NCBI GenBank assembly: GCA_036396115.1
Contig: DASWLN010000168.1
Coordinates: forward strand, 3,362 to 67,361
Length of the DNA stretch: 64,000 nt
Direction of reading: 5' to 3'
From: Candidatus Zixiibacteriota bacterium
GTDB lineage: Bacteria; Zixibacteria; MSB-5A5; DASWLN01
In this document: positions 30,631 to 64,000 of the stretch, one piece after another
How the letters are laid out: every line of letters begins with the position of its first letter
Numbering within the stretch: the first letter of the stretch is position 1
Program-made: the position numbers and the translations under genes
Notes under the pieces: model-generated
What the model was told of the DNA's origin: nothing
The model's input: the letters and a program-made list of their open reading frames with translations, nothing else
Databases searched by the model: none

Positions 30631-31068
30631 ATGTCTGAACAAGTTATGCTTAACTGGAAAGTCCATCCATTTAAAAGAAACAAAAAAGTTTCAATCGGAG
30701 TGATTTTGCTTTTATTTTTGGTCTGGGGCATAGTGTATCTTGCCACAGGCAGTTTACTTTTTTTGGCAATTGCAGTCGTTATGTTGTTGGGTTCCCTTTC
30801 AGGGTTCTTCCTGCCGACCGAATATGAGTTTTATACGAATAAGATAAAAGTGAAATATTTTTTAGCCAGCTTGGAGAAAGAGTGGAAGAATTATCGCAGT
30901 TTCTATATAGATAAGAATGGAGTGCTTTTGAGTCCTTTTAAAGAACCATCCAGATTGGAGAACTTCAGAGGGGTATATCTCAGACTGGACAGAAACTCAG
31001 AGATAAAAGATAAGGTTATAGATTTTATCAAATCTAAGATGGATAATTCTGTTGACGGTTCACGGTAG
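30631..31068 (+). CDS. hypothetical membrane protein (145 aa, 2 TM)
   Basis: Starts 3 nt after the previous stop. Confidence 0.4.
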   Translation: MSEQVMLNWKVHPFKRNKKVSIGVILLLFLVWGIVYLATGSLLFLAIAVVMLLGSLSGFFLPTEYEFYTNKIKVKYFLASLEKEWKNYRSFYIDKNGVLLSPFKEPSRLENFRGVYLRLDRNSEIKDKVIDFIKSKMDNSVDGSR

Positions 31069-31129: not shown

Positions 31130-31561
31130 ATGATTTTTCGTCAGAAATTCTCGCTTCCCGACTTTAAGGAAACAGATTCAAATCTCAAGACCCAAAATTC
31201 GGGGAATCTGACACCAGAGCAGGAAGAGCTTTTACGTAAGGTGGCACAGAAGGTTGTGCGCTGGAAGATGTCGGTCCCAGCCATTCTTTTCCTGGAGTCA
31301 GTCAAGCCCCTAAATTACCTTGGAAGTCAGATGATGGTCTTCTTTGAACCGTTTGTTCAGACCGTTTTCACCTGGAAAGATTATGACCAATACAGAATTA
31401 TTATGGAGGAAAGGGAAAATGTCGAAAAATTGTTACAGAAGATAGAGGAGTTGGATGCCATAGAAAAAGAAAAAGAAAAAGAAGGAAAAAAGAAAATAAA
31501 GGAAAAAAGAAAGAATTTACCCTGGGGCAAAAGAATTTGGAGTTATATAAGCGGAAGGTGA
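31130..31561 (+). CDS. hypothetical protein with Lys/Glu-rich C-terminus
   Basis: ORF only. No family recognised. Confidence 0.35.
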   Translation: MIFRQKFSLPDFKETDSNLKTQNSGNLTPEQEELLRKVAQKVVRWKMSVPAILFLESVKPLNYLGSQMMVFFEPFVQTVFTWKDYDQYRIIMEERENVEKLLQKIEELDAIEKEKEKEGKKKIKEKRKNLPWGKRIWSYISGR

Positions 31562-32797: not shown

Positions 32798-34624
32798 ATG
32801 AAGGATTTAAAACCTGAAAATGTCAATGTAATTTTAGCCACGGATTGTGGAAGCACCACCACCAAAGCGATCTTAATCGAAAAAAAGGGAAGCGGATATC
32901 GCCTCATCGTTCGCGGCGAAGCTCCCACCACGGTGGAAGCACCTTTTGAGGATGTTACTATGGGGGTCTTAAATGCAGTGGGAGAGGTGGAGGAACTGAC
33001 CGGGAGAAAGCTTTTGGATGAGAACGGTAGAATCATCTCGCCTGCCAAGGGAAATATTGGCTGTGATATTTATATCTCCACTTCCAGCGCGGGTGGTGGT
33101 CTGCAGATGATGGTGGCTGGAGTTGTTCGCACTATGACTGCAGAATCAGCGGAGAGGGCGGCTCTGGGTGCAGGTGCGATTGTGATGGACGTTATCTCCT
33201 CAAATGATAAAAGACTTCCTCATGAGCAGATTCAAAGAATCAGGCACTTAAGGCCAGATATGATTTTGCTTTCCGGTGGAATCGATGGTGGAACCACCAC
33301 ACACGTGGTTGAGCTAGCAGAGTTGATTTCTGCGGCTGACCCCAAACCGAGATTGGGAAGCGGATATAAGCTTCCGGTAATCTATGCCGGAAATGTTAAT
33401 GCGCGCGAAGCGGTTAAAGAGACTTTGTCCGGAAAAACAGATTTGGATATTGTGGACAATATTCGTCCGGTTCTGGAAAGAGAAAATCTTTTGCCTGCCA
33501 GAGAGAAGATTCACGACCTTTTCATGGAGCACGTTATGGCTCAGGCGCCGGGGTACAAAAAGCTTATGACCTGGACCGATGCACCGATAATGCCCACTCC
33601 CGGAGCAGTTGGTTTAATCATCAAGATCATTGCGGACTTGGAGAAGATAGAGGCTGTGGGTGTGGATATAGGAGGAGCGACAACTGACATCTTTTCAGTT
33701 TTTCAGGGGGTTTTCAATCGGACCGTCAGCGCCAATCTGGGTATGAGTTATTCGGTCTCAAATGTATTTGCCGAAACCGGACTTCCCAATGTTATGCGCT
33801 GGGTTCCTTTCCATATGGATGAGCGGGATTTAAGAAACAGGGTAAAAAATAAAATGATTCGTCCAACCACCATTCCCCAGATGATGGAGGAGTTGATTTT
33901 CGAGCAAGCCATTGCCAAAGAAGCGTTAAGATTGGCTTTCATTCAACACAAATCGTTTGCCACGGTCTTGAAAGGTATACAGCAACAGAGGACCATTGCG
34001 GATGCATTTGACCAGACTGCCAGTGGTCAAACCCTGGTGAATATGATGAGTCTGGATATCTTAGTTGGCTCAGGCGGAGTGCTCTCGCACGCACCTCGCA
34101 GACAACAAGCCGCCTTAATGCTGATTGATAGTTTCCTGCCAGAGGGGATAACCCGCTTAGCAGTGGATAGCATATTTATGATGCCGCAATTAGGAGTGCT
34201 TTCCACCATTCATCCCAAAGCAGCCAAGGACGTGTTTGATAAAGATTGCTTGATTCATTTAGGAACTTGCATCGCTCCAGTGGGCGGAGGAAAAGAGGGG
34301 AAGGAGATTTTAAAATATAAGTTTAAGCTACCTAGTGGAAAAGAGGAGGAAGGGGTTTTGAAATACGGGGAAATGAAAAGGATTCTTTTGGATGTAGGAG
34401 AAAAAGCAGAAGCGAGCCTGGAGCCCTATAGGGGTTTTGACATCGGCAAAGGAAAGGGAGCAAAAGTCGAGACCAAAATAAGTGGAGGAGTTGCCGGGAT
34501 AATTTTGGATGGCAGAGGAAGACCGTTTAGTTTGCCCACAGATGACAAAATCAGAGTGAATAAGCTCAAAGAGTGGATGCTGGCTCTGGATATTTATCCC
34601 AAAGAAGCGCTGGAGAGCTTGTAA
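32798..34624 (+). CDS. GlmL/MutL-like ASKHA (acetate/sugar kinase-Hsp70-actin fold) protein, 608 aa
   Basis: N-terminus ILATDCGSTTTKAIL resembles the glutamate mutase L family phosphate-1 motif. A second DIGGATTDIFSV motif is present. Longer than canonical GlmL. Confidence 0.45.
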   Translation: MKDLKPENVNVILATDCGSTTTKAILIEKKGSGYRLIVRGEAPTTVEAPFEDVTMGVLNAVGEVEELTGRKLLDENGRIISPAKGNIGCDIYISTSSAGGGLQMMVAGVVRTMTAESAERAALGAGAIVMDVISSNDKRLPHEQIQRIRHLRPDMILLSGGIDGGTTTHVVELAELISAADPKPRLGSGYKLPVIYAGNVNAREAVKETLSGKTDLDIVDNIRPVLERENLLPAREKIHDLFMEHVMAQAPGYKKLMTWTDAPIMPTPGAVGLIIKIIADLEKIEAVGVDIGGATTDIFSVFQGVFNRTVSANLGMSYSVSNVFAETGLPNVMRWVPFHMDERDLRNRVKNKMIRPTTIPQMMEELIFEQAIAKEALRLAFIQHKSFATVLKGIQQQRTIADAFDQTASGQTLVNMMSLDILVGSGGVLSHAPRRQQAALMLIDSFLPEGITRLAVDSIFMMPQLGVLSTIHPKAAKDVFDKDCLIHLGTCIAPVGGGKEGKEILKYKFKLPSGKEEEGVLKYGEMKRILLDVGEKAEASLEPYRGFDIGKGKGAKVETKISGGVAGIILDGRGRPFSLPTDDKIRVNKLKEWMLALDIYPKEALESL

Positions 34625-35013: not shown

Positions 35014-36141
35014 ATGGGTCATGCATATACCCCCGGTTTAAAAGTAACAGAAAGAGTCCTTTTAATAAAAAACAGAATCTTGCCTTTAAAAGGGGAAGTA
35101 TTAGTGAAGGTTGGGGATAAAGTTCATCCCGATACGGTTGTAGCCAGAACTCTTCTGCCGGGAAACGTTGAGCCGGTGAACGTGGCTAATAAATTGGGCA
35201 TTCCAGCAGAGGATGTGGAGTTTCATATGCTCAAAAAGGAGGGAGACAAGGTAGAAGAAAAAGAGACCATTGCAGAAAGCAGAAGTTTTTTTGGTCTTTT
35301 TAGGTCTGATGTCCATTCCCCAATTGTGGGAAAAATCGAGAGCGTCTCGCATATTACCGGGCAGGTATTGATTCGGGGAAATCCAATTCCGGTTGAGATA
35401 AAGGCATATCTGGAAGGGGAGGTGGTGGAGGTCTTTGAGAAAGAAGGGGTGGCGGTCAGCACCTGGGGCTCTTTCATTCAGGGGATTTTTGGAATAGGCG
35501 GGGAAACGCATGGACAGATAAAAGTGTTAACCAAGGATAACAAGGAAGTGCTGACTGACAAGCTGATTGATAAAAGCTGTAAAGGAAAAGTGATTATAGG
35601 CGGAAGTATAGTGACCAGCAATGCCATTCATCAGGCGATTTCAGTTGGGGCTTGTGGAATTGTGGTAGGTGGATTGGACGACAAAGACTTAAGGGAGTTT
35701 TTGGGGTATGACTTAGGTGTAGCCATAACCGGCTCAGAGGATTTAGGGATAACTCTGGTCATAACCGAAGGTTTCGGTCAGATAAATATGGCGGAGAAGA
35801 CCTTTGAACTCTTTAAATCCAAAGAGGGAAAGGAAGCTTGCATTAATGGGGCTACGCAGATTCGGGCCGGGGTTATTCGTCCGGAGGTAGTTATCCCCTA
35901 TGAAGGAGATGTGCATAAGAAGGAAGAGAAAGAGAATTTGGGAAATGTCGGCTTAACCACGGGTTATCCAGTGAGGGTGATTCGTCAGCCCTATTTTGGG
36001 GAATTAGGAAAGGTGGTAGCTTTGCCTCCGCAACTGCAGAAATTGGAGTCGGAATCAAAAGCTCGAGTGTTGGAAGTCCAGTTCAAGGATGGCAGAAAGG
36101 TGGTAGTCCCACGGGCGAACGTGGAGATGCTGGAGGAGTAG
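35014..36141 (+). CDS. hypothetical protein, 375 aa (possible partner of the GlmL-like gene)
   Basis: ORF with a good RBS. No family recognised. Confidence 0.4.
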   Translation: MGHAYTPGLKVTERVLLIKNRILPLKGEVLVKVGDKVHPDTVVARTLLPGNVEPVNVANKLGIPAEDVEFHMLKKEGDKVEEKETIAESRSFFGLFRSDVHSPIVGKIESVSHITGQVLIRGNPIPVEIKAYLEGEVVEVFEKEGVAVSTWGSFIQGIFGIGGETHGQIKVLTKDNKEVLTDKLIDKSCKGKVIIGGSIVTSNAIHQAISVGACGIVVGGLDDKDLREFLGYDLGVAITGSEDLGITLVITEGFGQINMAEKTFELFKSKEGKEACINGATQIRAGVIRPEVVIPYEGDVHKKEEKENLGNVGLTTGYPVRVIRQPYFGELGKVVALPPQLQKLESESKARVLEVQFKDGRKVVVPRANVEMLEE

Positions 36142-52969: not shown

Positions 52970-52987
52970 TCGGTTAGGGAAAGAAAA

Positions 52988-53581: not shown

Positions 53582-53589
53582 GAGACAAT

Positions 53590-53770: not shown

Positions 53771-53797
53771 AACCGAATATACCTCGAGGAGGTTTGA

Positions 53798-54847
53798 GTG
53801 CCATTTAACCCGAAATTCACTATTACCGCGAAAATCAACAAGGCGCTGGTAGAAATTGAACGGGTGCGGGGGTTCTTAGATGCGTTGAAGCTCAAGGATG
53901 ACTGGTTTATTGATATGCAACAAAAAGCATTAATCTTAGAGTCGCACCATTCCACGCATATTGAAGGCACAGCCTTAAGCTTGCAGCAAGCCAAGTCCAT
54001 CCTGGAAGGCAAAAAGGCCAATGGTGTCAGGGCTGACGATAAAAGGGAACTTACAAATTACAAGAAGGCCATGGATTTGGTTTCAAGATATCTTGGCAAG
54101 GATGATCCAATCACCGAAAGCGCTATCTCTGGGCTTCACAAAGTTACTGTGAAAAGCGTCCGTGGCGGACAGGCAGACCCGGGCAATTACCGGAAAATCC
54201 AGAATTATGTGGTCAATTCCCGCACCCGGAAAGTAATTTACACCCCGCCGGGTCCGCTTACGGTCCCGCTTCTCATGCGCGAGTTTGTAGATTGGCTCAA
54301 CAAAACCGAGGAGGTGTCGCCGATTCTTGTTGCCGGCATAGCGCAGTTTCAGTTTGTGCATATTCATCCCTTTGTTGACGGCAATGGCCGGATGGCCCGG
54401 CTTCTCTCAACTTTAATCCTTTACAAAACCGGCTATGACTTCAAGCGGTTATTTACCATCTCGGAGTATTACGACAAAGACCGTCCAAGCTACTATAAGG
54501 CCATCCAGTCAGTGCGTGAGGGCAATATGGACATGACCGGCTGGCTGGAGTACTTCGTTTGTGGCCTGCGTTCGCAGATGGAAGAAATCCAAGCTAAAGG
54601 CCAGCAGTTAATTAAACAAGATGTCAAACTTCAGAAGATTAAAAAACTTGGGATTGGCCTGCGTCAGGAAAAGGCGGTCAAGCATCTAATTATTAAAGGT
54701 ACGATTACGGTTAATGAATATCAGGAGATTGCCTCATGTGTCCGACGGACAGCCCAGAGAGATTTGGAAGATTTAGTTGACAAAGGCATCATCCAAGCCG
54801 TGGCCAAGAGCGCTACCGATCCCACAAAGTATTACGTTTTACTGTGA
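53798..54847 (+). CDS. Fic/DOC family protein (putative AMPylase)
   Basis: Canonical Fic motif HPFVDGNGRMARL and a C-terminal wHTH (TAQRDLEDLV). Confidence 0.85.
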   Translation: MPFNPKFTITAKINKALVEIERVRGFLDALKLKDDWFIDMQQKALILESHHSTHIEGTALSLQQAKSILEGKKANGVRADDKRELTNYKKAMDLVSRYLGKDDPITESAISGLHKVTVKSVRGGQADPGNYRKIQNYVVNSRTRKVIYTPPGPLTVPLLMREFVDWLNKTEEVSPILVAGIAQFQFVHIHPFVDGNGRMARLLSTLILYKTGYDFKRLFTISEYYDKDRPSYYKAIQSVREGNMDMTGWLEYFVCGLRSQMEEIQAKGQQLIKQDVKLQKIKKLGIGLRQEKAVKHLIIKGTITVNEYQEIASCVRRTAQRDLEDLVDKGIIQAVAKSATDPTKYYVLL

Positions 54848-55062
54848 CACGTTACTGTGACATACTGTGACATGCTACTGTGACATACGGAACGGTCTCG
54901 TGGTTGATTTTAGCGTAGGGAACAGGCATGCCTGTTCCCTACAAAAACGGACGCGGGGATGATTGTGACATACGGAATGGTCGCGTGGATGATTGTGATG
55001 TAGGGACAGGTCGCGTGGATGATTGTCGCGTAGGGAATGGTCGCGACCATTCCCTACAAAAG
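54841..55062. repeat. island REP cluster R8
   Basis: (T)ACTGTGACA x4 tandem, then GTAGGGAACAGGCATGCCTGTTCCCTAC, 30-nt units and GTAGGGAATGGTCGCGACCATTCCCTAC. The Fic stop codon lies in the first ACTGTGACA unit. Confidence 0.8.
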
Positions 55063-55332
55063 ATAAAATCATTATCGGAATTGGTCGGTGCATTCAAAAC
55101 AACGTCATCAAAGCATATTCGTCAATTGTGTTTGCCTGAGTTTGGATAGCAACGGTCATTCTACGACCATGTAATACGTGATGAGAAATCATTATGTGAT
55201 GTCTAGATTTACATACAAAATAACCCACCAGGCTGGGATTTAGATAGAAATAATACGGAGAATTTGTTTATGTGATTCATTTTGTGCTGTCACTAAATAT
55301 AGGATCATAGTATAATCTATAGGAGGGCGAAG

Positions 55333-55641
55333 ATGGAGCTAGCACTTAAGATTATAGGGATGTTTTTGGGGGTTTTGGCCCGGACTTATGTCCCTTACTT
55401 ACGAAAACTAAAAGAGGGGAAGGAAACCAAGTTCAAAAAATGTTATACTCTCTCAACAGTGGCGTCGCTTGTTTTGGGTTTGATCATAACTTTACTTGTC
55501 TTTCCGCAATTTGATATTGCCAAAGCGGGCGTTGGCCTGGAAGCTTCCATCAAGTTATTCTGTCTTGCCTTTGGTTTCGGTTTTGGATGGAATAGCATAG
55601 TTTCGGAGACGATCAAATGGACAACAGGAGGCAAAAATTAG
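55333..55641 (+). CDS. hypothetical small membrane protein (102 aa)
   Basis: Three hydrophobic segments. ORF only. Confidence 0.3.
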   Translation: MELALKIIGMFLGVLARTYVPYLRKLKEGKETKFKKCYTLSTVASLVLGLIITLLVFPQFDIAKAGVGLEASIKLFCLAFGFGFGWNSIVSETIKWTTGGKN

Positions 55642-55863
55642 ATCGCCACGAGGAGGTTGTGCTCTCAAATCCTCGAAAACCGATTGGTGATAGATTTCTC
55701 TTGACTTAACTTATTGTTTCTGTAAATTGGAGTAAATAATTTTCTAAACCCTAGGATGATGAATGGGAGATAGTCCTGTTTCGATTGTAGTCCTTTTGGG
55801 AAGGGGCAAGAAATAATAATCAAATCACCTTGAGAATTAAAGGTGATTTTTTCTTTTTAAAAT

Positions 55864-57024
55864 ATGGTGCTTTCAAAGAAAATGAACTTTCTGTTTATCC
55901 TCATAATATTCGCATCTTCTTGTTCACTTGTGTGGGCAGACCAGCCTCCAATCCCACCAACTGAAGTTAAGGGCTCTGATACAAAAAACGATGCCGGTGG
56001 AAGCATAACTCTCAGCTGGAAGAGGTCGCCAGATGATGGGGCGGGGAAAAACAATATTGTCTCTTATAAGGTATTAAGGTCAAGCCAAGAAGAAGGATTC
56101 TACATCTTGATAAGTGATGTGACCGCTGGCGCAGAACAGTTTCTGGATAACAATGCCAAAGATGGGATAAAATATTTTTACAAGATAAAAGCTATAAGCA
56201 ATGAAGGTTTTTCTTTGTCCTTGCCCAGCCCAGCCATCGTGTCCAAGGCACAGTGGTTCGATACAACAAAGATCTATATACTGGCGATGTCGGTAATTCT
56301 CTTTTCGGCTATTCTTTATTTCATATCTAAAGCTAAATCGGGTAAGGAGCTTTTCATTCGCAAGATCGCCGGCTTAGACGCGGTGGATGAGGCGGTAGGT
56401 CGCGCTACGGAAATGGGGCGCAAGATAATTTACATTCCCGGAATCAATGACCTGGATGACATCCAAACTATAGCAGGTATAACCATTTTGGGTCGGGTGG
56501 CGAAATTAGTGGCTGAATATGAAGCTAAGCTTGAAGTTCCGGTTAGCCGTTCTATGGTTATGGTATCCTGTCGTGAAACAGTTAAGGAAGCATATATTAA
56601 CGCTGGTCGCCCGGATGCCTACAGCGATGATATGGTGCATTACCTGACGGATGACCAGTTTGCTTATGCGGCGGCATGCGATGGTATTTTCGTTAGAGAA
56701 AAACCGGCCGCTATATTTTTGATGGGAACTTTTTTTGCTGAATCTTTGGTCTTGGCTGAGACCGGAAACTCGGTGGGTGCAATTCAGATTGCAGGAACTG
56801 CCCGGCCTGCACAATTGCCATTCTTTGTGGCGGCTTGCGATTACACTTTAATCGGAGAGGAGCTTTTTGCTGCTTCCGCCTATCTTTCCAAAGACCCGAA
56901 GCTTTTGGGGAGCCTGAGGGGGCAGGATGTGGGGAAAGTGTTGTTCTTGCTTGGAATTTTGGTAGGGACGATCCTGATCTCTTTTAATATTTTGGATATA
57001 AGTTTTATCTTTAATGTAAGGTGA
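55864..57024 (+). CDS. cassette copy A, gene 1: signal peptide - Fn3-like ectodomain - TM - conserved ~230-aa domain - C-terminal TM
   Basis: Fn3 pattern (ITLSWKRSP...YKVLRS...YFYKIKAISNEG). Conserved motifs GLDAVDEAVGRATEMGR, AETG, QLPFFVAACDYTLIGEEL are shared with the genes at 59349 and 62816. Confidence 0.6.
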   Translation: MVLSKKMNFLFILIIFASSCSLVWADQPPIPPTEVKGSDTKNDAGGSITLSWKRSPDDGAGKNNIVSYKVLRSSQEEGFYILISDVTAGAEQFLDNNAKDGIKYFYKIKAISNEGFSLSLPSPAIVSKAQWFDTTKIYILAMSVILFSAILYFISKAKSGKELFIRKIAGLDAVDEAVGRATEMGRKIIYIPGINDLDDIQTIAGITILGRVAKLVAEYEAKLEVPVSRSMVMVSCRETVKEAYINAGRPDAYSDDMVHYLTDDQFAYAAACDGIFVREKPAAIFLMGTFFAESLVLAETGNSVGAIQIAGTARPAQLPFFVAACDYTLIGEELFAASAYLSKDPKLLGSLRGQDVGKVLFLLGILVGTILISFNILDISFIFNVR

Positions 57025-57042
57025 ATTGGGAGTTAGCCTAAA

Positions 57043-57696
57043 ATGCGCAGAGAGGTACCGATAGCCATAACAGCAGTAGTAGGCATCATCTTTTTGATGT
57101 CATACTTCACGCCCCATTTCCCCTTAAATGTATTGCACAACTCGGCAACTGATATATTTATGATAATCGCTGCCTTTTCCATCCTCTTAGGGGTTCTAAA
57201 TCTGGTCCGGGTGAATCTGGAGAAAATATCCAAAAAGAAGAGGGATTGGCCCTTCAGCATAGTTTTGATCTTAGGTCTTCTGGTTATGACTATCGTGGGA
57301 TTGGGTTTCTCGAAAGGCAGAAATTTCATGGAGCTGGGGACTAACTTCCGCTACCTGTACGATTATGTGTATAATCCCCTATCAGCCACCATGTTCTCCA
57401 TTCTGGCTTTTTTCATTGCCTCTGCCTCTTACCGTGCTTTTCGTGGACGTAACTTAGAGGCAACCCTGCTTTTGGTGGCGGCTTTTGTAGTTATGCTGGG
57501 AAGAGTCCCAATAGGTTATTATCTTTCCTCCTGGCTACCAACAAATTATCATCTGGGAGATGCTGCTAGCTGGATTATGAACGTTCCTCAAAAGGCGGGA
57601 CAAAGAGCAATCATGATTGGCATTGCTTTAGGTGTGGTCTCAACTTCGATACGTATCATCCTGGGCTTGGAGCGGACCTATCTGGGTGGGGAATAG
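57043..57696 (+). CDS. cassette copy A, gene 2: ~6-TM membrane protein
   Basis: Paralog of 60540..61190 (shared ...AFFIASASYRAFRGRN.../...AFYIASAAYRAFRART...). Confidence 0.55.
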   Translation: MRREVPIAITAVVGIIFLMSYFTPHFPLNVLHNSATDIFMIIAAFSILLGVLNLVRVNLEKISKKKRDWPFSIVLILGLLVMTIVGLGFSKGRNFMELGTNFRYLYDYVYNPLSATMFSILAFFIASASYRAFRGRNLEATLLLVAAFVVMLGRVPIGYYLSSWLPTNYHLGDAASWIMNVPQKAGQRAIMIGIALGVVSTSIRIILGLERTYLGGE

Positions 57697-57717
57697 AAAC
57701 TATTTTGGAGGAAATAA

Positions 57718-58569
57718 GTGAACTTTTTTGAGAAGCTTTTGGTCATTGACCGCCGAGTTATCTTTCTTTTCGTGGCTGTGGCTATTGCCGTTCCCCTCTT
57801 TTTCAAAGTCAATCTGAAAGTCGATATCACTCCCGAAGTAAGGAAAGTTTACGATATAATGGAGAATCTGCCGGAGGGGTCTAAGGTACTAGTCGCTTTC
57901 GATTACGATCCCGGCTCCATGCCGGAACTTCAGCCCATGGCGGAATCCTTTATCAGGCACTGCATAAGAAAAAAATTGAAGATGATTATTATGGGTTTGT
58001 GGCCCCAGGGGTTTATTCAGGCGAATCAGGCTTTGGAGAAGGTGCTGAAAGAAGAAGAATTCAAGGATGTTAAGCTAGAGGAAGGTGTGGATTGGGTCAA
58101 CTTGGGTTATGCTGCAGGGAATGAGGTGGTCATTGAGAGGATGGGAAGCGATATTTCAGCTGTTTTTGCTGCAGATTATAGAGGCATGAAATTAGGCAAT
58201 CTGCCTTTAATGAAAGGCGTCAAAAACTTCAGCAATATCGATTTCATATATAACCTGTCCGCTGGTTATCCGGGAACACAGGAGTGGGTGCAGTTTGCGG
58301 TTGATAAATTTGGCGCTAAATTAGCGGCTGGAAACACTGCGGTGCAAGCGCCCCTGATCTACCCTTTTTATCCTAAACAGCTTTTGGGGGTGTTGGGTGG
58401 TATGAAAGGGGCAGCAGAATATGAAGTTCTGATGGGAATTCCTGCTACGGGGGTAAAATACATGTTCTCACAGTCAGTTGCCCATGGAGTGGTCTGTTTC
58501 TTTGTTATAATAGGTAATTTAGCTTTCTTTTTAACCAGAGGTAAAAGAAAAAGCGGAGGTCAAAAGTGA
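57718..58569 (+). CDS. cassette copy A, gene 3: bitopic protein (N- and C-terminal TM, central soluble domain)
   Basis: Paralog of 61194..62051 (shared DYDPxxxxELxP, GMKGAAEYE). Confidence 0.55.
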   Translation: MNFFEKLLVIDRRVIFLFVAVAIAVPLFFKVNLKVDITPEVRKVYDIMENLPEGSKVLVAFDYDPGSMPELQPMAESFIRHCIRKKLKMIIMGLWPQGFIQANQALEKVLKEEEFKDVKLEEGVDWVNLGYAAGNEVVIERMGSDISAVFAADYRGMKLGNLPLMKGVKNFSNIDFIYNLSAGYPGTQEWVQFAVDKFGAKLAAGNTAVQAPLIYPFYPKQLLGVLGGMKGAAEYEVLMGIPATGVKYMFSQSVAHGVVCFFVIIGNLAFFLTRGKRKSGGQK

Positions 58570-59234
58570 GCGAAGCTATTGGACTATGGATCGGCGCGCT
58601 TTTGACTTTGGGGATTTTTAGTTTTCTCTATAAGGACAACCCTCTTTATAAATTTTGCGAAGCCCTTTTTGTAGGAATCTCTGCGGGGTATTTTGTCGTT
58701 ATTTCATATTGGCAGATCATAGTTGCAAAAATGGTGGATGTGCTCAGGGTGGGTTTCGATTATTGGATAGTCTTGAGATATTTTGATTTTCAGAGCTGGC
58801 TTCCGCTGTTGGGAGGCGTTTTTGGAATCTTGATGCTTTTGCGTCTGTTCCCCAAGATCGGTTGGATATCGCGTTGGTCATTGGCTTTAGTGGTTGGCAC
58901 CACAGCCGGCTTATATTTCACCGTCTACTTAGTGAGCAATGGTATGATGCAAGTCAAGAGCACCATAATCCCTTTGTATGTGGCTGGGGATATGAGCACA
59001 ACCATCGGCAATATCGTGGTGGTCTTAGGCACCGTCTGTGGGCTGATTTACTTTTTCTTCTCCAAAGAGCATAAAGGCGTTTTTGGCGGAGTGGCTAAGA
59101 TAGGAATCTGGTTTATTATGATTACCTTTGGGGCCTCTTTTGGTTATACTGTTATGTCGCGTATGTCGCTATTGATTGGAAGGATGGATTATTTGGGGAT
59201 ATCTTTTGGGGAATTTTTGAAGTTGCTTAAGTGA
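58566..59234 (+). CDS. cassette copy A, gene 4: ~6-TM membrane protein
   Basis: Paralog of 62066..62797 (shared LYKDNP(L/F)YKF(C/A)E, FFFS(K/R)EHKG(V/A)FG). Confidence 0.55.
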   Translation: MSEAIGLWIGALLTLGIFSFLYKDNPLYKFCEALFVGISAGYFVVISYWQIIVAKMVDVLRVGFDYWIVLRYFDFQSWLPLLGGVFGILMLLRLFPKIGWISRWSLALVVGTTAGLYFTVYLVSNGMMQVKSTIIPLYVAGDMSTTIGNIVVVLGTVCGLIYFFFSKEHKGVFGGVAKIGIWFIMITFGASFGYTVMSRMSLLIGRMDYLGISFGEFLKLLK

Positions 59235-59348
59235 AATAGAAGAGTTAAATTATAAAAAGCAATATTAGTATCCCCGCCTTGGCCTAAAAGAGCGGGAAAC
59301 CTTGGCCCATCTTGAGGGCAAGATGGGTTTACTGCTTACAAAAAGCAA

Positions 59349-60536
59349 ATGAAAAAGAGAAGGTCATATCCTTTAATTCTATTCTTGCTGTTAGGGTTTC
59401 TTTTGATTTGGGTTATTGCTTTTGCCCAAGAAGAATCTCCCTTACCTCCAAGCCAGGTCAAGGTCAAAGACACACCCAATGACAATGGTCATTCCTTAAC
59501 CATCACCTGGAAGTCATCACCGGACAGCGCCAAGATTCTAGGTTATGAGATTTTGAGGTCTGATTCTCCGGATGGTGAATTTAAAGTGGTGGGACAGGCA
59601 TTAGCCACAGATACCTTATATAAGGACAAGGGAGATAAGGAAAAAGAAAGCCCCAACTATTTCCCCAGTCATAAGAATTTTTATTACAAAGTAAGAGCAA
59701 AAACGGATGGACTGTCTTCCGAGTCAGAAATCTCCTTACCAGCTTATGCTTTCCAGCAATGGTATCACGCTGGGAAAACCCCGGTGTTGGTAGCAGTCCT
59801 CATCTTCAGCACCTTAACCCTGATCTTCATCAGCAAAGCCAAAAAAGGCAAGGAGCTTTATGTTAGACCTCTGGCTGGAATTGGGGCAGTGGATGAGGCG
59901 ATTGGCCGTGCGACCGAAATGGGAAGACCTATACTTTTCATTTTAGGCTTAGGAACCGCGGCGGATATCGCCACGATTGCTGGTTTTACCATCTTGAGCC
60001 GAGTAGCAAAAAGAACAGCGGAATATAAGACTAGAATAATAGTTCCCTGCAATGACCCCATTGTGATGGCAGTTGCTCAGGAAACAGTGAAGGCGGCTTA
60101 CATGGATGCCGGCAGACCGGAGGCTTATGAAGAAAAGAACATATTCTTTCTCACCTCCATGCAGTTTGCTTATGTGGCTGGGGTGAATGGAATAATGTTA
60201 AGAGAAAGGACCGCCACCAACTTCTATATGGGACTGTTCTACGCGGAATCGTTAATCTTGGCAGAGACCGGCTCAATTGCCGGCTCAATTCAGATCTCGG
60301 GGACTGACCAGATGTCTCAACTTCCTTTCTTTGTGGCGGCAACCGACTATACTCTAATCGGCGAAGAGCTTTATGCGGCAAGCGCCTATCTGGGTAGAGA
60401 GCCGTTGCTTTTGGGAGCGCTCAAAGCGCAAGATTGGGCCAAGGGGATACTTTTGATTTGTTTAATACTAGGAACTATCTTCACCAGTTTACATTTAGAT
60501 TTCTTTGCTAACCTTTTCAAATTCAGTTTGGAATAA
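59349..60536 (+). CDS. cassette copy B, gene 1: Fn3-like ectodomain - TM - conserved domain protein
   Basis: Same architecture and motifs as 55864..57024. Confidence 0.6.
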   Translation: MKKRRSYPLILFLLLGFLLIWVIAFAQEESPLPPSQVKVKDTPNDNGHSLTITWKSSPDSAKILGYEILRSDSPDGEFKVVGQALATDTLYKDKGDKEKESPNYFPSHKNFYYKVRAKTDGLSSESEISLPAYAFQQWYHAGKTPVLVAVLIFSTLTLIFISKAKKGKELYVRPLAGIGAVDEAIGRATEMGRPILFILGLGTAADIATIAGFTILSRVAKRTAEYKTRIIVPCNDPIVMAVAQETVKAAYMDAGRPEAYEEKNIFFLTSMQFAYVAGVNGIMLRERTATNFYMGLFYAESLILAETGSIAGSIQISGTDQMSQLPFFVAATDYTLIGEELYAASAYLGREPLLLGALKAQDWAKGILLICLILGTIFTSLHLDFFANLFKFSLE

Positions 60537-60539
60537 GAT

Positions 60540-61190
60540 ATGAGAAGACAACTTCCCATCTTGGTAGTTTTCATATCCGGGATTTTCATGGCGATACAGT
60601 ATTTTGTTCCCAGTGAGCCGGCAGAGTTTGTGCAGGAATACGCTATGGACTGGGTAATAGTTATTGGAGTATTTGCCATGGGTTTGGGATTGTGGAGCTT
60701 GACTAAAGTAAACTGGATCAAGGTTCAAAGACAAACGCCAGGTTGGGGTTATAATTTAGTCACCATTTTGGGAATGGTTTTTATGTTGGTGGTGGGACTG
60801 ATTTGGGATCCAGGATTAGGGTTTTTCCCGGGAGAAAAGTCGCAAGTAAGTGGAACCTGGTTTATGAACTTTTTCTGGTATATCTATCTTCCCATTCAGA
60901 CGGTTATGTTTTCCCTTTTAGCTTTTTATATTGCATCGGCGGCTTATCGCGCTTTCAGGGCAAGAACCATCTTAGCAAGTATTTTACTTGTTACCGCCAT
61001 AGTGATTATGTTGCGCCTTATTCCATTGGGAGCTGTTTCCGGCATAAACCAGTGGTTGGCTAACTGGATTCTGATAGTCCCCAATATGGCGGCTAAAAGA
61101 GCTATCTGGATGGGGGTTGGTTTGGGAATGGTGGCTATGGCCTTAAAGATAGTTTTGGGTATTGAACGTTCTTATATGGGCAGAGATTAA
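60540..61190 (+). CDS. cassette copy B, gene 2: ~6-TM membrane protein
   Basis: Paralog of 57043..57696. Confidence 0.55.
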   Translation: MRRQLPILVVFISGIFMAIQYFVPSEPAEFVQEYAMDWVIVIGVFAMGLGLWSLTKVNWIKVQRQTPGWGYNLVTILGMVFMLVVGLIWDPGLGFFPGEKSQVSGTWFMNFFWYIYLPIQTVMFSLLAFYIASAAYRAFRARTILASILLVTAIVIMLRLIPLGAVSGINQWLANWILIVPNMAAKRAIWMGVGLGMVAMALKIVLGIERSYMGRD

Positions 61191-61193
61191 TTT

Positions 61194-62051
61194 ATGGGTT
61201 TCTATGAAAAATTGATGAGTCTGGACCGCAGATGGGTCTATCTATGTGTGGCGATTGCAGTGGTTTTGCCGTTTCTTTTAGAAGAATTCGGGGTTCCGAT
61301 ATTTATACCACCCTATATTACTCCAGAAGTGAAAAGCGTTTACAACTTTGTAGAGAAACTAAGAGAAGATGATGTACTTTTTCTGGCTATCGATTACGAT
61401 CCGATGGCCAAGGCGGAGTTGCACCCTGTGGCTAGGGCAGTATTAAAACAGTGTTTCAAAAAGAATGTCAAGGTTATCATTTCCGCTCTTAGTCAAAATG
61501 GTCCGGGAATGGCAGAGCAGCTTATATCCCAGACTGCTAAAGAATATAACAAAGTTGATGGGGTAGATTATGTTTATTTGGGATACAAACCCTTTCCGGC
61601 CCTGGTGATTATGGGTATGAGCCAGAATTTTAAGTTGTTCTTCCCTAAGGACTATTACGGCACCCCGCTTGATTCTTTGCCTATGATGGCAAAAGTAAGA
61701 AACATCAAAGACACTAAGGGAGTGATTGACGTTGCAGCGGGAAGTGTGGCGGATATGTGGATAAATGAAGGTGCCGGAAGATACAACTATCCATTAGCTT
61801 TAGCAGTTACTGGAGTTATGGCTGCGGACTATTATCCTTTTTTGAATTCAGGTCAACTATTTGGACTGGTGAGTGGAATGAAAGGCGCGGCTGAATATGA
61901 GTATTTAATGGAGAAAGGTGGGTATATGAAAAAAGAGGAGTTTGACGCTTCTCGCGGTATGCCCATCCAGATGTTTGCCCATATTGTAGTCATACTCTTC
62001 ATTATCATTGGAAATGTCGGGTATTTTATGTCTAGAAGAAAAAAGTCTTAA
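61194..62051 (+). CDS. cassette copy B, gene 3: bitopic membrane protein
   Basis: Paralog of 57718..58569. Confidence 0.55.
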   Translation: MGFYEKLMSLDRRWVYLCVAIAVVLPFLLEEFGVPIFIPPYITPEVKSVYNFVEKLREDDVLFLAIDYDPMAKAELHPVARAVLKQCFKKNVKVIISALSQNGPGMAEQLISQTAKEYNKVDGVDYVYLGYKPFPALVIMGMSQNFKLFFPKDYYGTPLDSLPMMAKVRNIKDTKGVIDVAAGSVADMWINEGAGRYNYPLALAVTGVMAADYYPFLNSGQLFGLVSGMKGAAEYEYLMEKGGYMKKEEFDASRGMPIQMFAHIVVILFIIIGNVGYFMSRRKKS

Positions 62052-62065
62052 AGGGGAGATAAGGC

Positions 62066-62797
62066 GTGAGCTTAGTTGATTTTATGTGGATGAGCATAGG
62101 TGCTCTTTTGACGCTTTTCACATTCTCCTATCTGTATAAAGATAACCCATTCTATAAATTCGCCGAGCATCTGGTAGTGGGAGTCTCAGCCGGATATTTT
62201 GCAGTGCTTCTTTATTATAGCTCTTTTATGCCAAAGGTCATAGATACGGTATTCAGGCCTATTGAATGGAAATATTTTATCCTGGCTTTCAAACAGATAA
62301 AGCCAGAGTATCTATTGGCAGCACTCAAAGGTAGTCAGTGGTGGTATCTTGTCCCGGGGATATTAGGGGTTATGATGTGGACTCGTTTCTCCAGAAAACT
62401 TTCCTGGATTTCTCGCTTCTCACTTGCCTTCTACATGGGCATAGGAATTGGTGCCTCCATACCCTTGACTTTGCAGAACTATGTGTTGAAGCATTTGACT
62501 TCGACTATACAGCCGGTCAATTTCACCAGCTTAACCGGAATATGGCGGCTTTTGATAGTGATTCTTGTATTTTGTACCTTGGTTTATTTCTTTTTCTCTC
62601 GCGAGCACAAAGGGGCATTCGGAGCTTCCGCCAAAGTCGGAATATGGGTTCTAATGATTGCTTTTGGAGCGGGATTTGGTTTAACGGTTATGGGCAGGGT
62701 GGCGCTTCTGGCGGAGAGGGTTATTTTCCTGAGGGATTATTGGGTTGAGTTGAAATATTTCCTTTATATGCTTTTCAAATACGGGATGCTGCTTTAA
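62066..62797 (+). CDS. cassette copy B, gene 4: ~6-TM membrane protein
   Basis: Paralog of 58566..59234. Confidence 0.55.
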   Translation: MSLVDFMWMSIGALLTLFTFSYLYKDNPFYKFAEHLVVGVSAGYFAVLLYYSSFMPKVIDTVFRPIEWKYFILAFKQIKPEYLLAALKGSQWWYLVPGILGVMMWTRFSRKLSWISRFSLAFYMGIGIGASIPLTLQNYVLKHLTSTIQPVNFTSLTGIWRLLIVILVFCTLVYFFFSREHKGAFGASAKVGIWVLMIAFGAGFGLTVMGRVALLAERVIFLRDYWVELKYFLYMLFKYGMLL

Positions 62798-62815
62798 CCC
62801 CAACCCCTTATAAAT

Positions 62816-63619
62816 TTGATCTCTAAAATTATCTTCTATTTATCATTCTGGTTTGATTTCAATCGGGTCAATGTCTTAGTTACACTTCTGGTCTTCTTTT
62901 CCTTCCTGATTTATTTTATCGGAAGAGCCAAAAAAGGGAAATCCCTTTTTATTCGTCGCATTGCCGGCTTGGATGCTATCGAGGAGGCAGTTGGCCGCGC
63001 CACCGAGATGGGAAGGCCCGTACTTTATATCCCCGGAATAGAAGATATGGATAACATTCAAACCGTAGCCAGCATGATAATCTTAGGTAACGTTGCCAAG
63101 ATGGCAGCGCGCTATGAGACTACCTTGATTGTTCCCATCTGTAGGCCGTTTGTGGTGCCGGTGGCAGAGGAATCAGTGCAGCAGGGCTACATGGCTGCTG
63201 GCCGTCCGGATGCTTACGATAAGAACAGTGTGCGTTATATCTCAGATGAGCAGTTCGCCTATACTGCCGGGGTGAATGGGATAATGCTACGGGATAAACC
63301 AGCCGCAAATCTCTTGTTCGGGTCCTTCTTCGCTGAGTCATTGATTATGGCTGAAACCGGCTTTTCCACCGGAGCGATTCAGGTAGCAGGCACAGCTAAT
63401 ATTCATCAACTTCCTTTCTTTGTGGTAGCTTGCGATTACACCATAATTGGAGAGGAGCTTTATGCGGTCTCGGCTTATCTTTCCAAGGAGCCGAAACTCT
63501 TGGGAACACTTAAAGGTTCTGATTTGGCAAAGCTTATTATAATGATAATACTCATTTTGGGCGCGATTTTAGCCACAGCTAATGTCGAGTGGTTTAGAAA
63601 TCTGTTTTTTGTGCAGTAA
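62816..63619 (+). CDS. cassette copy C, gene 1 variant: TM plus conserved domain, lacking the Fn3 ectodomain
   Basis: Shares FIRRIAGLDAIEEAVGRATEMGRP...AETG...QLPFFVVACDYTIIGEELYA with the genes at 55864 and 59349. Followed by a MITE rather than genes 2-4. Confidence 0.55.
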   Translation: MISKIIFYLSFWFDFNRVNVLVTLLVFFSFLIYFIGRAKKGKSLFIRRIAGLDAIEEAVGRATEMGRPVLYIPGIEDMDNIQTVASMIILGNVAKMAARYETTLIVPICRPFVVPVAEESVQQGYMAAGRPDAYDKNSVRYISDEQFAYTAGVNGIMLRDKPAANLLFGSFFAESLIMAETGFSTGAIQVAGTANIHQLPFFVVACDYTIIGEELYAVSAYLSKEPKLLGTLKGSDLAKLIIMIILILGAILATANVEWFRNLFFVQ

Positions 63620-63653: not shown

Positions 63654-63809
63654 TGTCATCGCGAGTGACCAGGGGGAGCGTGGCGATCTCGATTTCATAA
63701 TCCATGATGTTATAAGAGATTGCCACGTCGTCCGCCGCAGGCCCTCGGCTTCCCTCGGCTTCGCCGAGAGGCGAGCGCCGAGAGGCGAGCGAGACTCCTC
63801 GCAATGACA
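63654..63809. repeat. TGTCATTGCGAG MITE copy with nested CCTCGGCTTCGCCGAGAGGCGAGCG repeat
   Basis: TGTCATCGCGAGTGACC...CCTCGGCTTCCCTCGGCTTCGCCGAGAGGCGAGCG...GACTCCTCGCAATGACA. Confidence 0.7.
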
Positions 63810-64000
63810 GCCGAGGAATGTTTGAGTGAATTAAAAGACCCTTAAGATATTGACAAAATGGGTGTCATTCTGAGTAAAGCGAAGAATCTCTAGTCTTTGA
63901 TTTATGATAAGGCGAGATGGATTCGCTTCGCTCACCATGACAATCCCCCGCGCTTTTCAACATATCCACTAGAGGAAAAGGATTTTATGCGACGCGAAGT

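What the first reader, a model, noticed from the sequence alone, without database searches (positions are those of the whole stretch)
55864..63619. Tandem triplication of a 4-gene membrane cassette of unrecognised function
Genes 1-4 (Fn3 ectodomain-TM-conserved domain; 6-TM; TM-soluble-TM; 6-TM) occur as A (55864-59234) and B (59349-62797) in identical order. A third copy of gene 1 at 62816 lacks the Fn3 domain. Paralogs are divergent (roughly 40-60% identity by eye), which indicates an old duplication under selection rather than an assembly artefact. The gene-1 cytoplasmic domain carries strongly conserved motifs (GRATEMGR, AETG, QLPFFVAACDYT(L/I)IGEEL) but no Walker motifs. No family came to mind for any of the four proteins. 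A multi-subunit envelope complex (transport, motility or surface-sensing) with paralogous specificities is plausible.
Basis: seen in the sequence. Interest (0 to 1): 0.85.

Follow-up and report, generated by a model that had tools for sequence, protein, structure and literature searches.

The report
Triplicated uncharacterised four-gene membrane cassette
Three old, diverged tandem copies of a four-gene inner-membrane module sit in this Zixibacteria genome; the module is conserved across at least ten bacterial phyla, is often linked to an actin-fold ATPase gene pair, and matches no characterised system.

Summary
Cassettes A (55864-59234) and B (59349-62797) repeat the same four genes at 36-47% protein identity. 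The third copy is also complete: C1 is 62816-63619, C2 starts at 63987, and C3 and C4 lie just past the window end.

It is not an assembly artefact. The closest related genomes carry the same A-B-C array, including the third gene 1 without Fn3.

Gene 1 belongs to Pfam DUF6754 (E about 1e-120). Genes 2, 3 and 4 match no Pfam, NCBIfam or PDB family.

In 70 of 79 related genome loci, spanning at least ten phyla, the four genes occur in the same order. Most phyla have one copy; Zixibacteria and Ignavibacteria have two or three.

New here: a GlmL/MutL-family ATPase and a 375-aa barrel-sandwich protein lie directly upstream of the cassette in about 40% of loci. In this window they sit at 32798-36141, separated from cassette A by a 19.7-kb island of defence-type genes.

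The conserved surfaces face the cytoplasm and the periplasmic parts vary.

Best guess, at low confidence: interchangeable membrane modules served by one cytoplasmic ATPase module, acting in envelope transport or assembly. The function is untested.

The parts
55864..57024 (+). A1: signal peptide, Fn3 ectodomain, TM helix, cytoplasmic DUF6754 alpha/beta domain, TM helix (386 aa)
57043..57696 (+). A2: polytopic membrane protein (217 aa, about 6 TM) with conserved cytoplasmic motifs TMFxLLAFFxASAxYRAFRA and LGIERxYxG
   Evidence: No Pfam, NCBIfam or PDB family.
57718..58569 (+). A3: TM helix, periplasmic Rossmann-like domain, TM helix (283 aa). The C-terminal TM helix carries invariant Q252, H256 and N267.
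58566..59234 (+). A4: polytopic membrane protein (222 aa, about 6 TM) with conserved loops SFLYKDNPxYKFxE and YFFFSKEHxGxFG
   Evidence: No family.
59349..60536 (+). B1: paralogue of A1 (395 aa; Fn3 plus DUF6754)
   Evidence: 47% identity to A1. Pfam DUF6754 E 5.8e-114.
60540..61190 (+). B2: paralogue of A2
   Evidence: 39% identity, E 1e-54.
61194..62051 (+). B3: paralogue of A3
   Evidence: 36% identity, E 1e-53.
62066..62797 (+). B4: paralogue of A4
   Evidence: 43% identity, E 5e-50.
62816..63619 (+). C1: gene 1 paralogue without an ectodomain (267 aa; TM, DUF6754, TM)
   Evidence: Pfam DUF6754 E 1e-118. 60% identity to A1. Orthologous short forms of 267-303 aa occur in L003, L005, L006 and L067.
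63654..63809 (.). Palindromic dispersed repeat element (termini TGTCATCGCGAG...CTCGCAATGACA) inserted in the 367-nt C1-C2 spacer. A second, similar element lies at about 63863-63945.
   Evidence: Nine copies of the 17-mer in the window against 0.13 expected. Alignment of copies. Sequence of the spacer.
63987..64000 (+). Start of C2, cut by the window end. The full C2, C3 and C4 are on the parent contig at L001:11172-11792, 12141-12986 and 12983-13678.
   Evidence: A2/C2 44%, A3/C3 45%, A4/C4 42%. Window coordinate.
32798..34624 (+). GlmL/MutL-family ASKHA (actin-fold) ATPase, 608 aa, with phosphate-binding motifs intact (DCGSTTTK, DIGGATTD). Proposed cytoplasmic partner.
   Evidence: Pfam MutL E 9e-129. 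NCBIfam GlmL scores are below the equivalog cut-offs. Sequence. Gene-neighbourhood linkage.
35014..36141 (+). 375-aa protein ('BSH375'): N-terminal barrel-sandwich-hybrid domain, alpha/beta middle part, C-terminal small beta domain. Motifs FxQGIFGIGGE, TEGFG, NGATQIRAGVxRPE, PRANVE. Proposed cytoplasmic partner.
   Evidence: Weak but recurrent hits to Biotin_lipoyl (9 of 15 members), RnfC_N (6 of 15) and NQRA_N (3 of 15). Alignment. Directly upstream of gene 1 in many loci.
31130..31561 (+). 143-aa protein conserved immediately upstream of the MutL-like gene
   Evidence: Homologues in 43 fetched loci, next to MutL. No Pfam family for a homologue of this protein, L144:7662-8063.
30631..31068 (+). 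145-aa protein with two TM helices, conserved upstream of the 143-aa gene
   Evidence: Homologues in 24 fetched loci.

Best explanation
What it is (shown). The region holds three anciently diverged paralogous copies of a conserved four-subunit inner-membrane module. Each module has four parts:
- Gene 1: a bitopic protein with a variable periplasmic ectodomain (Fn3 in A1 and B1, none in C1) and a highly conserved, acid-rich Rossmann-like DUF6754 domain placed in the cytoplasm between two TM helices.
- Gene 2: a polytopic protein of about 6 TM.
- Gene 3: a protein whose Rossmann-like domain is held in the periplasm between two TM helices.
- Gene 4: a second, unrelated polytopic protein of about 6 TM.

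How it probably works (inferred).
1. The four products form one hetero-oligomeric complex. Its conserved face is cytoplasmic and its periplasmic face is variable.
2. That cytoplasmic face docks a soluble pair: a GlmL/MutL-family actin-fold ATPase and a 375-aa barrel-sandwich-hybrid protein. This pair is normally encoded immediately upstream. Here it lies at 32798-36141, split from the cassettes by a 19.7-kb island of defence-type genes.
3. ATP turnover by that pair drives or gates an envelope process through the membrane module. Translocation or assembly of an envelope component is the most likely process.
4. The three cassettes are alternative membrane modules with different periplasmic specificities that share the single ATPase pair.
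For: Conserved unit:
- 70 of 79 genome loci carry complete g1-g2-g3-g4 sets in that order. Forty-two loci have one set, 13 have two and 15 have three. Eight of the nine others are cut by contig ends.
- The loci span Zixibacteria, Ignavibacteria, WOR-3, Acidobacteriota, Planctomycetota, Gemmatimonadota, Fermentibacteria, Cloacimonadota, Poribacteria, Armatimonadota and others.
- DUF6754 has 2,214 clusters at 50% identity with E <= 1e-3. The domain lies at or near the C-terminus in nearly all of the 150 listed, behind an N-terminal part of about 25 to over 1,000 residues.

Operon packing: gaps of -4 to 21 nt within cassettes.

Topology, from hydropathy and the positive-inside rule on alignments of about 100 sequences:
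- The FG-GAP insertion in gene 2 of L039 and L043 falls in a loop predicted to be periplasmic.
- A3 models with high confidence as TM, Rossmann-like domain, TM.

Conserved inside, variable outside:
- Between paralogues the DUF6754 domain is 55-63% identical, Fn3 33%, and the gene 3 periplasmic domain 37-47%.
- Family ectodomains include Fn3 repeats, RHS, and BamB-like or FG-GAP propellers.

Link to the ATPase pair:
- Starting from DUF6754: 21 of 53 loci with at least 3.5 kb of upstream sequence carry the 375-aa protein (BSH375) and 21 carry MutL, both in 20. In most of these the order is MutL, BSH375, gene 1 on one strand; in some Zixibacteria and Ignavibacteria loci the pair is divergently oriented. 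The phyla include Acidobacteriota, Planctomycetota, Fermentibacteria, Aegiribacteria, Eisenbacteria, Coatesbacteria, Zixibacteria and Ignavibacteria.
- Starting from the 375-aa protein in metagenomes: MutL is adjacent in 40 of 55 loci and the cassette lies within the locus in 26 of 62.
- In the closest MAGs the pair lies 160-700 nt upstream of cassette A.
- Arrays of three cassettes have a single upstream pair.
- The ATPase keeps its ASKHA phosphate-binding motifs.

All three copies keep the family's invariant residues.
Against: - No biochemical, genetic or expression data exist for any member. No paper mentions DUF6754 or PF13941.
- About 60% of loci lack the ATPase pair within 10 kb. WOR-3 loci carry DUF4388 and ExbBD-TonB genes instead. 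The partnership may therefore be facultative, or only shared synteny.
- No known primary transporter uses an ASKHA ATPase. GlmL relatives are annotated as accessory proteins of B12-dependent mutases; from background knowledge they act as reactivases or chaperones, not motors.
- The AF2 model of A1 is poor (pLDDT below 50) in exactly the most conserved segment, residues 289-344. No fold assignment was obtained for DUF6754, gene 2 or gene 4.
- No substrate is indicated. There is no riboswitch and no consistently linked enzyme.
Confidence: 0.4

Rival explanations
1. It is a transmembrane sensing or signalling device. Variable periplasmic ectodomains (Fn3, propellers) detect envelope or surface cues and transmit them through the membrane subunits to the conserved cytoplasmic DUF6754 domain. 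That domain would then recruit cytoplasmic regulators, without moving any substrate.
For: - A variable ectodomain with a constant cytoplasmic domain is receptor-like.
- In WOR-3 loci gene 4 is followed within 2 nt by a DUF4388 protein and further small proteins, with no ATPase pair within the 10 kb fetched upstream.
Against: - No recognised output domain (kinase, cyclase, HTH or anti-sigma) occurs in any of the four proteins.
- Two conserved polytopic subunits and a conserved periplasmic Rossmann-like subunit are more than a receptor needs.
- C-type gene 1 has no ectodomain at all, yet it is conserved.
Confidence: 0.15
2. It is an envelope-integrity or cell-division scaffold that works with the Tol-Pal or Ton systems. 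An actin-fold protein would be tethered to bitopic and polytopic membrane partners, in the manner of MreB-MreC-MreD or PilM-PilN-PilO.
For: - ExbB/TolQ-type genes lie within 6 kb downstream of the cassette in 10 of 79 loci.
- TolQ, TolR, TolA-like, TolB and Pal genes follow the ATPase pair in 6-12 of 80 metagenome loci.
- WOR-3 loci have gene 4, five small genes, then ExbB-ExbD-ExbD-TonB on one strand.
- The partner ATPase has the actin/Hsp70 fold family signature.
Against: - The adjacency is found in a minority of loci and could be inherited synteny.
- GlmL-type ASKHA proteins are not known to form filaments (background knowledge).
- There is no homology to Mre, Pil, Fts or Tol proteins.
Confidence: 0.15
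3. It is a very divergent relative of the Rnf/Na+-NQR type of ion-translocating complex. The subunit plan is parallel: an NqrA/RnfC-like peripheral protein, two subunits of about 6 TM, a TM-anchored periplasmic domain subunit, and a TM-anchored cytoplasmic Rossmann-like subunit.
For: - Sub-threshold but recurrent RnfC_N and NQRA_N hits in the 375-aa protein.
- The subunit architecture resembles NqrA, NqrC, NqrD, NqrE and NqrF (a comparison from background knowledge).
Against: - PF02508 (Rnf-Nqr) is not among the weak (E <= 1) Pfam hits listed for 48 gene 2 and 41 gene 4 members (for gene 2 only the 25 most frequent of 66 hit families are listed).
- Genes 2 and 4 are unrelated to each other, whereas NqrD/E and RnfA/E are paralogues.
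- There are no conserved cysteine pairs and no flavin-attachment motifs.
- No NqrB/RnfD equivalent is present.
Confidence: 0.07
4. It is a disguised member of a known transporter or motor class (ABC-2 permease with a GldG-like auxiliary subunit, or Mot/Exb/Tol). Its ATPase or stator partner would be encoded elsewhere.
For: - A2 gives weak hits to ABC2_membrane_3 (E 0.012), and 12 of 48 gene 2 members hit TMD0_ABC (best E 8.7e-5).
- The TM, periplasmic domain, TM plan of gene 3 recalls GldG-type auxiliary subunits (recalled from memory, not tested).
Against: - All hits are below the Pfam gathering scores and are scattered among 66 families.
- There is no conserved Walker motif and no adjacent ABC ATPase in 159 loci.
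- Profile searches against all PDB sequences find nothing for genes 2, 3 and 4.
- The same scans readily detect genuine ExbB, ExbD and TonB nearby.
Confidence: 0.08
5. The tandem copies are an assembly artefact (a collapsed or expanded repeat).
For: None beyond the general risk in metagenome assemblies.
Against: - The copies are only 36-60% identical at protein level, too divergent to confuse an assembler.
- The same proteins and arrangement occur in separate NCBI, ENA and JGI assemblies.
- Orthologous A-B-C arrays occur in other species-level MAGs.
Confidence: 0.01

Closest known systems
Pfam DUF6754 (PF20539)
   Same: Gene 1 of all three cassettes matches over the whole model (E 1e-114 to 1e-123). 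NCBI annotates C1 as 'DUF6754 domain-containing protein'.
   Different: The family is only a catalogue entry with no assigned function. The Pfam and NCBIfam libraries scanned hold no model for the three partner genes, and no paper in the library searched mentions the family.
GlmL/MutL-family ASKHA ATPases (accessory proteins of B12-dependent glutamate mutase and ornithine aminomutase)
   Same: The linked 608-aa protein matches Pfam MutL over positions 1-450 (E 9e-129) and keeps the ASKHA phosphate-binding motifs.
   Different: It scores 227 bits against an equivalog cut-off of 475. It carries an extra C-terminal part of about 125 aa. No mutase gene was found among the recurrent neighbours or the window ORFs scanned. 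Its conserved neighbours are membrane proteins.
Na+-NQR / Rnf complexes
   Same: The subunit plan is parallel and the linked 375-aa protein has a weakly RnfC_N/NqrA_N-like barrel-sandwich-hybrid domain.
   Different: There is no sequence relation for the membrane subunits, no redox-cofactor motifs, and genes 2 and 4 are not paralogues of each other. The resemblance is architectural only.
ExbB-ExbD-TonB and Tol-Pal systems
   Same: Both are inner-membrane envelope systems, and they recur as genomic neighbours of the cassette or of the ATPase pair.
   Different: No homology. The MotA_ExbB, ExbD and TonB_C models hit the neighbouring genes but none of genes 1-4.
Actin-fold protein with membrane partners (MreB-MreC-MreD, PilM-PilN-PilO)
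   Same: A cytoplasmic ASKHA protein is genetically linked to bitopic and polytopic membrane proteins with periplasmic domains.
   Different: There is no sequence similarity. The ATPase belongs to the hydantoinase/GlmL branch of the fold, not the filament-forming branch. This comparison rests on background knowledge and was not tested.

Membership tests
Pfam DUF6754 (PF20539) | Full-length match to the family HMM above the gathering score (27 bits) | tested here: met
   A1 410 bits, B1 380 bits, C1 396 bits.
Fibronectin type III domain | Fn3 beta-sandwich fold | tested here: met
ABC transporter | Walker A/B and signature-motif ATPase, with a permease matching ABC membrane-domain models | tested here: not met
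   No conserved Walker A. ABC2_membrane_3 scores 15 bits against a cut-off of 31.6. No ABC ATPase gene is among the conserved neighbours.
MotA/ExbB/TolQ - ExbD/TolR stator systems | Match to PF01618 (MotA_ExbB) and PF02472 (ExbD) | tested here: not met
   No hit in the nine window proteins, nor among the weak-hit families listed for 48 gene 2 and 41 gene 4 members. Positive control: the same models hit neighbouring genes in L025.
Rnf / Na+-NQR | Two paralogous 6-TM subunits matching PF02508, and a periplasmic FMN_bind subunit with a flavinylation motif | tested here: not met
   No PF02508 or FMN_bind hits. hhalign of gene 2 against gene 4 gives probability 0.3%. A3 is Rossmann-like, not an FMN_bind fold.
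Rnf / Na+-NQR | Peripheral subunit with an RnfC_N/NqrA_N barrel-sandwich-hybrid domain | tested here: inconclusive
   The 375-aa protein scores 20 bits on RnfC_N against a cut-off of 25.6. Six of 15 orthologues hit RnfC_N and 3 of 15 hit NQRA_N, all below threshold.
GlmL (methylaspartate mutase accessory protein) equivalog | Score above the NCBIfam equivalog cut-off, and a context of B12-dependent mutase genes | tested here: not met
   227.6 bits against a cut-off of 475. TIGR01319 scores 167 against 204. The gene context is membrane genes, not mutase genes. At Pfam level the protein is a MutL-family member.
Any solved protein family, for genes 2, 3, 4 and the DUF6754 domain | Significant sequence-profile match to a PDB chain | tested here: not met
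   Profile searches give nothing at E below 0.1 except the Fn3 part.

The most novel reading that the evidence does not exclude
This is a previously unrecognised class of bacterial envelope machine. A GlmL-type actin-fold ATPase and a barrel-sandwich-hybrid protein would energise interchangeable four-subunit inner-membrane modules built around DUF6754. The system is spread over at least ten mostly uncultured phyla and is multiplied into arrays of specificity variants in Zixibacteria and Ignavibacteria. It would be the first membrane transport or assembly system driven by an ASKHA ATPase rather than a P-loop ATPase or an ion-driven stator.
Probability: 0.25. Interest if true: 0.85.

Novelty: categorically new. 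Interest (0 to 1): 0.68.

Why it matters
If the reading holds, thousands of genomes from the FCB and PVC groups, Acidobacteriota and related phyla share a conserved envelope system of six to eight genes that nobody has characterised. Its energising component would be of a type not known to power membrane machines.

The work here turns a vague set of hypothetical proteins into a defined and testable unit: four membrane subunits with predicted topology and invariant residues, two linked cytoplasmic proteins, and two small accessory proteins. It also names tractable lineages that carry a single copy, for example Gimesia and other Planctomycetota, Acidobacteriota and Gemmatimonadota.

The Zixibacteria arrays provide natural specificity variants for comparison, including copies with and without the Fn3 ectodomain.

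Tried and rejected
4. The DUF6754-SppA (peptidase S49) fusion in L014 first looked like a clue to proteolysis. None of the 120 best homologues shares both domains, so it was set aside as a one-off or a sequencing fusion.
5. hhalign among the four families found no internal relationship. Gene 2 is unrelated to gene 4, and the gene 1 domain is unrelated to the gene 3 domain.
6. Promoter and terminator scans gave counts at chance level.
7. Rfam gave no hit in the window.
8. Five literature searches (DUF6754; PF20539/PF13941; GlmL with actin-like and membrane; TIGR01319 and 'glutamate mutase L'; Zixibacteria with fibronectin type III) returned nothing relevant.
9. Plasmid and phage collections hold no DUF6754 homologue, so a mobile-element origin was rejected.
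10. The Walker-A-like GRAKKGKS in C1 was rejected as chance, because it is not conserved in A1, B1 or the family.
11. Weak Na,K-ATPase P-domain hits at E about 1 were treated as noise.

Full report
**The observation**

ORF listing confirms nine co-directional genes at the stated coordinates. Cassette A is 55864-59234, cassette B is 59349-62797, and C1 is 62816-63619.

BLASTP identities are as follows:
- A1/B1 47% (E 8e-112), A1/C1 60%, B1/C1 53%
- A2/B2 39%, A3/B3 36%, A4/B4 43%

The window comes from a candidate division Zixibacteria MAG. A1 is 100% identical to an NCBI protein on a 138.8-kb contig.

Fetching the same region from an independent ENA assembly (L001; window coordinate = L001 coordinate + 52815) shows that the third cassette is complete. 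C2 starts at window 63987. C3 and C4 follow at L001:12141-12986 and 12983-13678. Their identities to the A copies are 44%, 45% and 42%.

Within a cassette the gaps are -4 to 21 nt. Between cassettes they are 114 and 18 nt. Only cassette C has long spacers (367 and 348 nt), and the C1-C2 spacer, read here, holds inserted palindromic repeat elements.

**Not an artefact, and not peculiar to this genome**

HMMs built from the A, B and C copies find the order g1-g2-g3-g4 complete in 70 of these 79 loci. Forty-two loci have one set, 13 have two and 15 have three. Eight of the other nine are cut by contig ends. One, L014, has a lone gene 1.

Single copies are typical of WOR-3, Acidobacteriota, Planctomycetota (including a Gimesia MAG), Gemmatimonadota, Fermentibacteria, Cloacimonadota, Poribacteria and Armatimonadota. 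Arrays of two or three are typical of Zixibacteria and Ignavibacteria.

In the closest MAGs (L003, L005, L006, L067) each position in the array is orthologous to A, B and C respectively. This includes a short third gene 1 of 267-303 aa with no ectodomain. The triplication therefore predates these species, and all copies keep the family's invariant residues.

**What the four proteins are**

*Gene 1.*
- It matches Pfam DUF6754 at E 1e-114 to 1e-123.
- After the Fn3 comes a TM helix, an alpha/beta domain modelled acceptably for residues 170-280 but poorly (pLDDT below 50) for the most conserved segment 289-344, and a final TM helix.
- Basic residues after the first TM helix place the DUF6754 domain in the cytoplasm.
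- Invariant residues include T182, E183, E293, E299, T300, Q308, T312, Q317, D326, E332 and E333.

*Gene 3.*
- It models with high confidence (pLDDT 91.7, pTM 0.87) as TM helix, Rossmann-like domain of about six strands, TM helix.
- A conserved DRR before the first helix and a basic C-terminal tail put the domain in the periplasm.

*Genes 2 and 4.*
- Both are polytopic proteins of about 6 TM.
- Their best-conserved motifs fall in loops predicted to be cytoplasmic: YRAFRAR and LGIERxYLG in gene 2, and SFLYKDNPxYKFxE and YFFFSKEHxGxFG in gene 4.

*Across all four.*
- Profile-profile comparison finds no relationship among the four families.
- Genes 2, 3 and 4 have no Pfam or NCBIfam family. This holds even when 48 and 41 diverse members were scanned at E <= 1.
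- None of the four has a sequence relative in the PDB apart from the Fn3 part.
- Public annotation calls them hypothetical proteins.

**A linked cytoplasmic module**

Clustering the flanking ORFs revealed two strongly conserved upstream neighbours.
- The first is a protein of about 610 aa in the GlmL/MutL family of actin-fold (ASKHA) ATPases. It matches Pfam MutL at E 9e-129 but scores below the NCBIfam GlmL equivalog cut-offs. Its phosphate-binding motifs are intact.
- The second is a 375-aa protein with very high cross-phylum conservation. It gives recurrent sub-threshold hits to barrel-sandwich-hybrid families: Biotin_lipoyl in 9 of 15 members, RnfC_N in 6 of 15 and NQRA_N in 3 of 15.

Of 53 DUF6754 loci with at least 3.5 kb of upstream sequence, 21 carry the 375-aa protein and 21 carry MutL, with both in 20. 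In most the order is MutL, 375-aa protein, gene 1 on one strand; in some Zixibacteria and Ignavibacteria loci the pair is divergently oriented. They come from at least eight phyla.

The reciprocal test started from the 375-aa protein in metagenome contigs. MutL was adjacent in 40 of 55 loci, and the cassette lay within the fetched locus in 26 of 62. Two small proteins, of 143 aa and of 145 aa with two TM helices, precede MutL in 43 and 24 loci respectively.

This window contains all of these genes: 30631-31068, 31130-31561, 32798-34624 and 35014-36141. In the closest MAGs the pair lies 160-700 nt upstream of cassette A.

Here 19.7 kb intervene. That stretch carries Thi4, an AbiEii toxin, an SMC-like ATPase, two DNA methyltransferases, DUF6996/6997, a radical SAM protein, Fic and other genes. 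GC content dips to 0.36. I read this as an island of defence-type genes that split an ancestral cluster.

**Constant inside, variable outside**
- Between paralogues the cytoplasmic DUF6754 domain is the most conserved part (55-63%). The Fn3 domain (33%) and the periplasmic domain of gene 3 (37-47%) diverge more.
- An exhaustive search finds 2,214 clusters at 50% identity with E <= 1e-3. In nearly all of the 150 listed the DUF6754 domain is at or near the C-terminus, and the N-terminal part ranges from about 25 to over 1,000 residues.
- Where the ectodomains can be identified they are Fn3 repeats, RHS repeats or a BamB-like propeller. Gene 2 in some arrays carries an FG-GAP propeller in a loop predicted to be periplasmic.
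- ExbB/ExbD/TonB or Tol-Pal genes recur nearby in a minority of loci.
- No homologue occurs in the plasmid or phage collections.

**Interpretation**

Shown:
- A fixed four-gene membrane unit is conserved across phyla.
- It is triplicated anciently in this lineage.
- It has no detectable relation to ABC, Mot/Exb/Tol or Rnf/Nqr components by the sequence, profile and partial fold tests I could run.
- It is frequently linked, across phyla, to a GlmL-family ATPase and a barrel-sandwich protein.

Inferred:
- The four products form one complex whose conserved cytoplasmic face docks the ATPase pair.
- ATP turnover drives or gates an envelope process.
- The paralogous cassettes are alternative periplasmic-specificity modules sharing one cytoplasmic engine.

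I place about 0.4 on this overall picture, less on transport specifically. The remainder is split among a sensing device, a Tol/Ton-associated scaffold, a very divergent Rnf/Nqr-like complex, and a disguised known transporter.

The main weaknesses are these:
- There is no experimental evidence at all.
- About 60% of loci lack the ATPase pair within 10 kb.
- I obtained no fold assignment for the DUF6754 domain or for genes 2 and 4.

**Novelty**

Gene 1 is catalogued as a DUF. The four-gene unit, its partners and its arrays were not found in any paper searched. No defining feature of any known system was met. I therefore rate it categorically new, with one reservation: a remote structural relationship for three of the four proteins has not been excluded.

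Noticed in passing
window 11405, 17993, 19934, 24595, 31582, 32614, 37476, 37553, 63793 (17-mer positions); full element e.g. 63654-63809: A dispersed palindromic element of about 80-160 nt with termini TGTCATTGCGAG...CTCGCAATGACA and an internal GC-rich hairpin. The 17-mer occurs nine times against 0.13 expected. All copies checked are intergenic. It looks like a MITE- or REP-like repeat family.
   Followed up: partly
window 31582-32630: The DJ-1/PfpI gene (31775-32446) lies between the conserved 143-aa gene and the MutL-like gene. It is bracketed by two inverted copies of the palindromic element, which suggests it was inserted into the conserved cluster.
   Followed up: no
window 36142-55863: A 19.7-kb variable island separates the ATPase pair from cassette A. 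It carries Thi4, AbiEii (40759-41631), a 942-aa SMC/AAA protein, a Dam-type and an N6/N4 DNA methyltransferase, DUF6996/6997, radical SAM, CBS, DUF6933 and Fic genes. GC falls to 0.36 at 48-50 kb. It is probably a defence or mobile island.
   Followed up: partly
window 55822-55849: A perfect 10-bp-stem inverted repeat (AAATCACCTT...AAGGTGATTT) followed by a T-run, 15 nt upstream of the A1 start codon. It could be a terminator for the upstream 102-aa gene or an operator. Scan counts overall were at chance level.
   Followed up: no
window 55333-55641: A 102-aa predicted membrane protein just upstream of A1 has no homologue in any of the 159 related loci. It probably belongs to the variable island and not to the system.
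   Followed up: yes
L014:9857-12244: In a Zixibacteria chromosome a lone DUF6754 gene is fused in frame to a C-terminal S49/SppA-type peptidase (795 aa), with no genes 2-4. No other homologue among the 120 best shares both domains.
   Followed up: yes
L039:14932-16710 and L043:15151-16926: Gene 2 of the third cassette is about 590 aa. In L039, the one scanned, it carries FG-GAP propeller repeats inserted in a predicted periplasmic loop.
   Followed up: partly
L025:13177-18305 (also L013, L024, L027): In WOR-3 and Stahlbacteria loci gene 4 is followed within 2 nt by a DUF4388 protein. Four small unassigned proteins come next, then ExbB-ExbD-ExbD-TonB, all on one strand. No GlmL-like pair is nearby.
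   Followed up: partly
L084, L087, L088, L089, L098, L106, L110 (between MutL and the 375-aa gene): Ten of the metagenome loci carry a conserved protein of about 260 aa with a signal peptide and a C-terminal TM anchor; in L106, L099 and L015 it lies between the MutL-like gene and the 375-aa gene. Tol-Pal genes follow the 375-aa gene in L088 and recur near the pair in 6-12 of the 80 loci.
   Followed up: no
A1 residues 289-344 (window about 56728-56895): The most conserved segment of DUF6754 (AESLxLAETG ... QLPFFVAACDYTLIGEE) is the worst-modelled part of the AF2 prediction, with pLDDT below 50. It may fold only against a partner.
   Followed up: no
L001:13737-18598 (just beyond the window end): Downstream of cassette C lie a 714-aa Big_1/invasin-like surface protein on the opposite strand and a 601-aa protein with a T9SS C-terminal sorting domain (Por_Secre_tail).
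   Followed up: no
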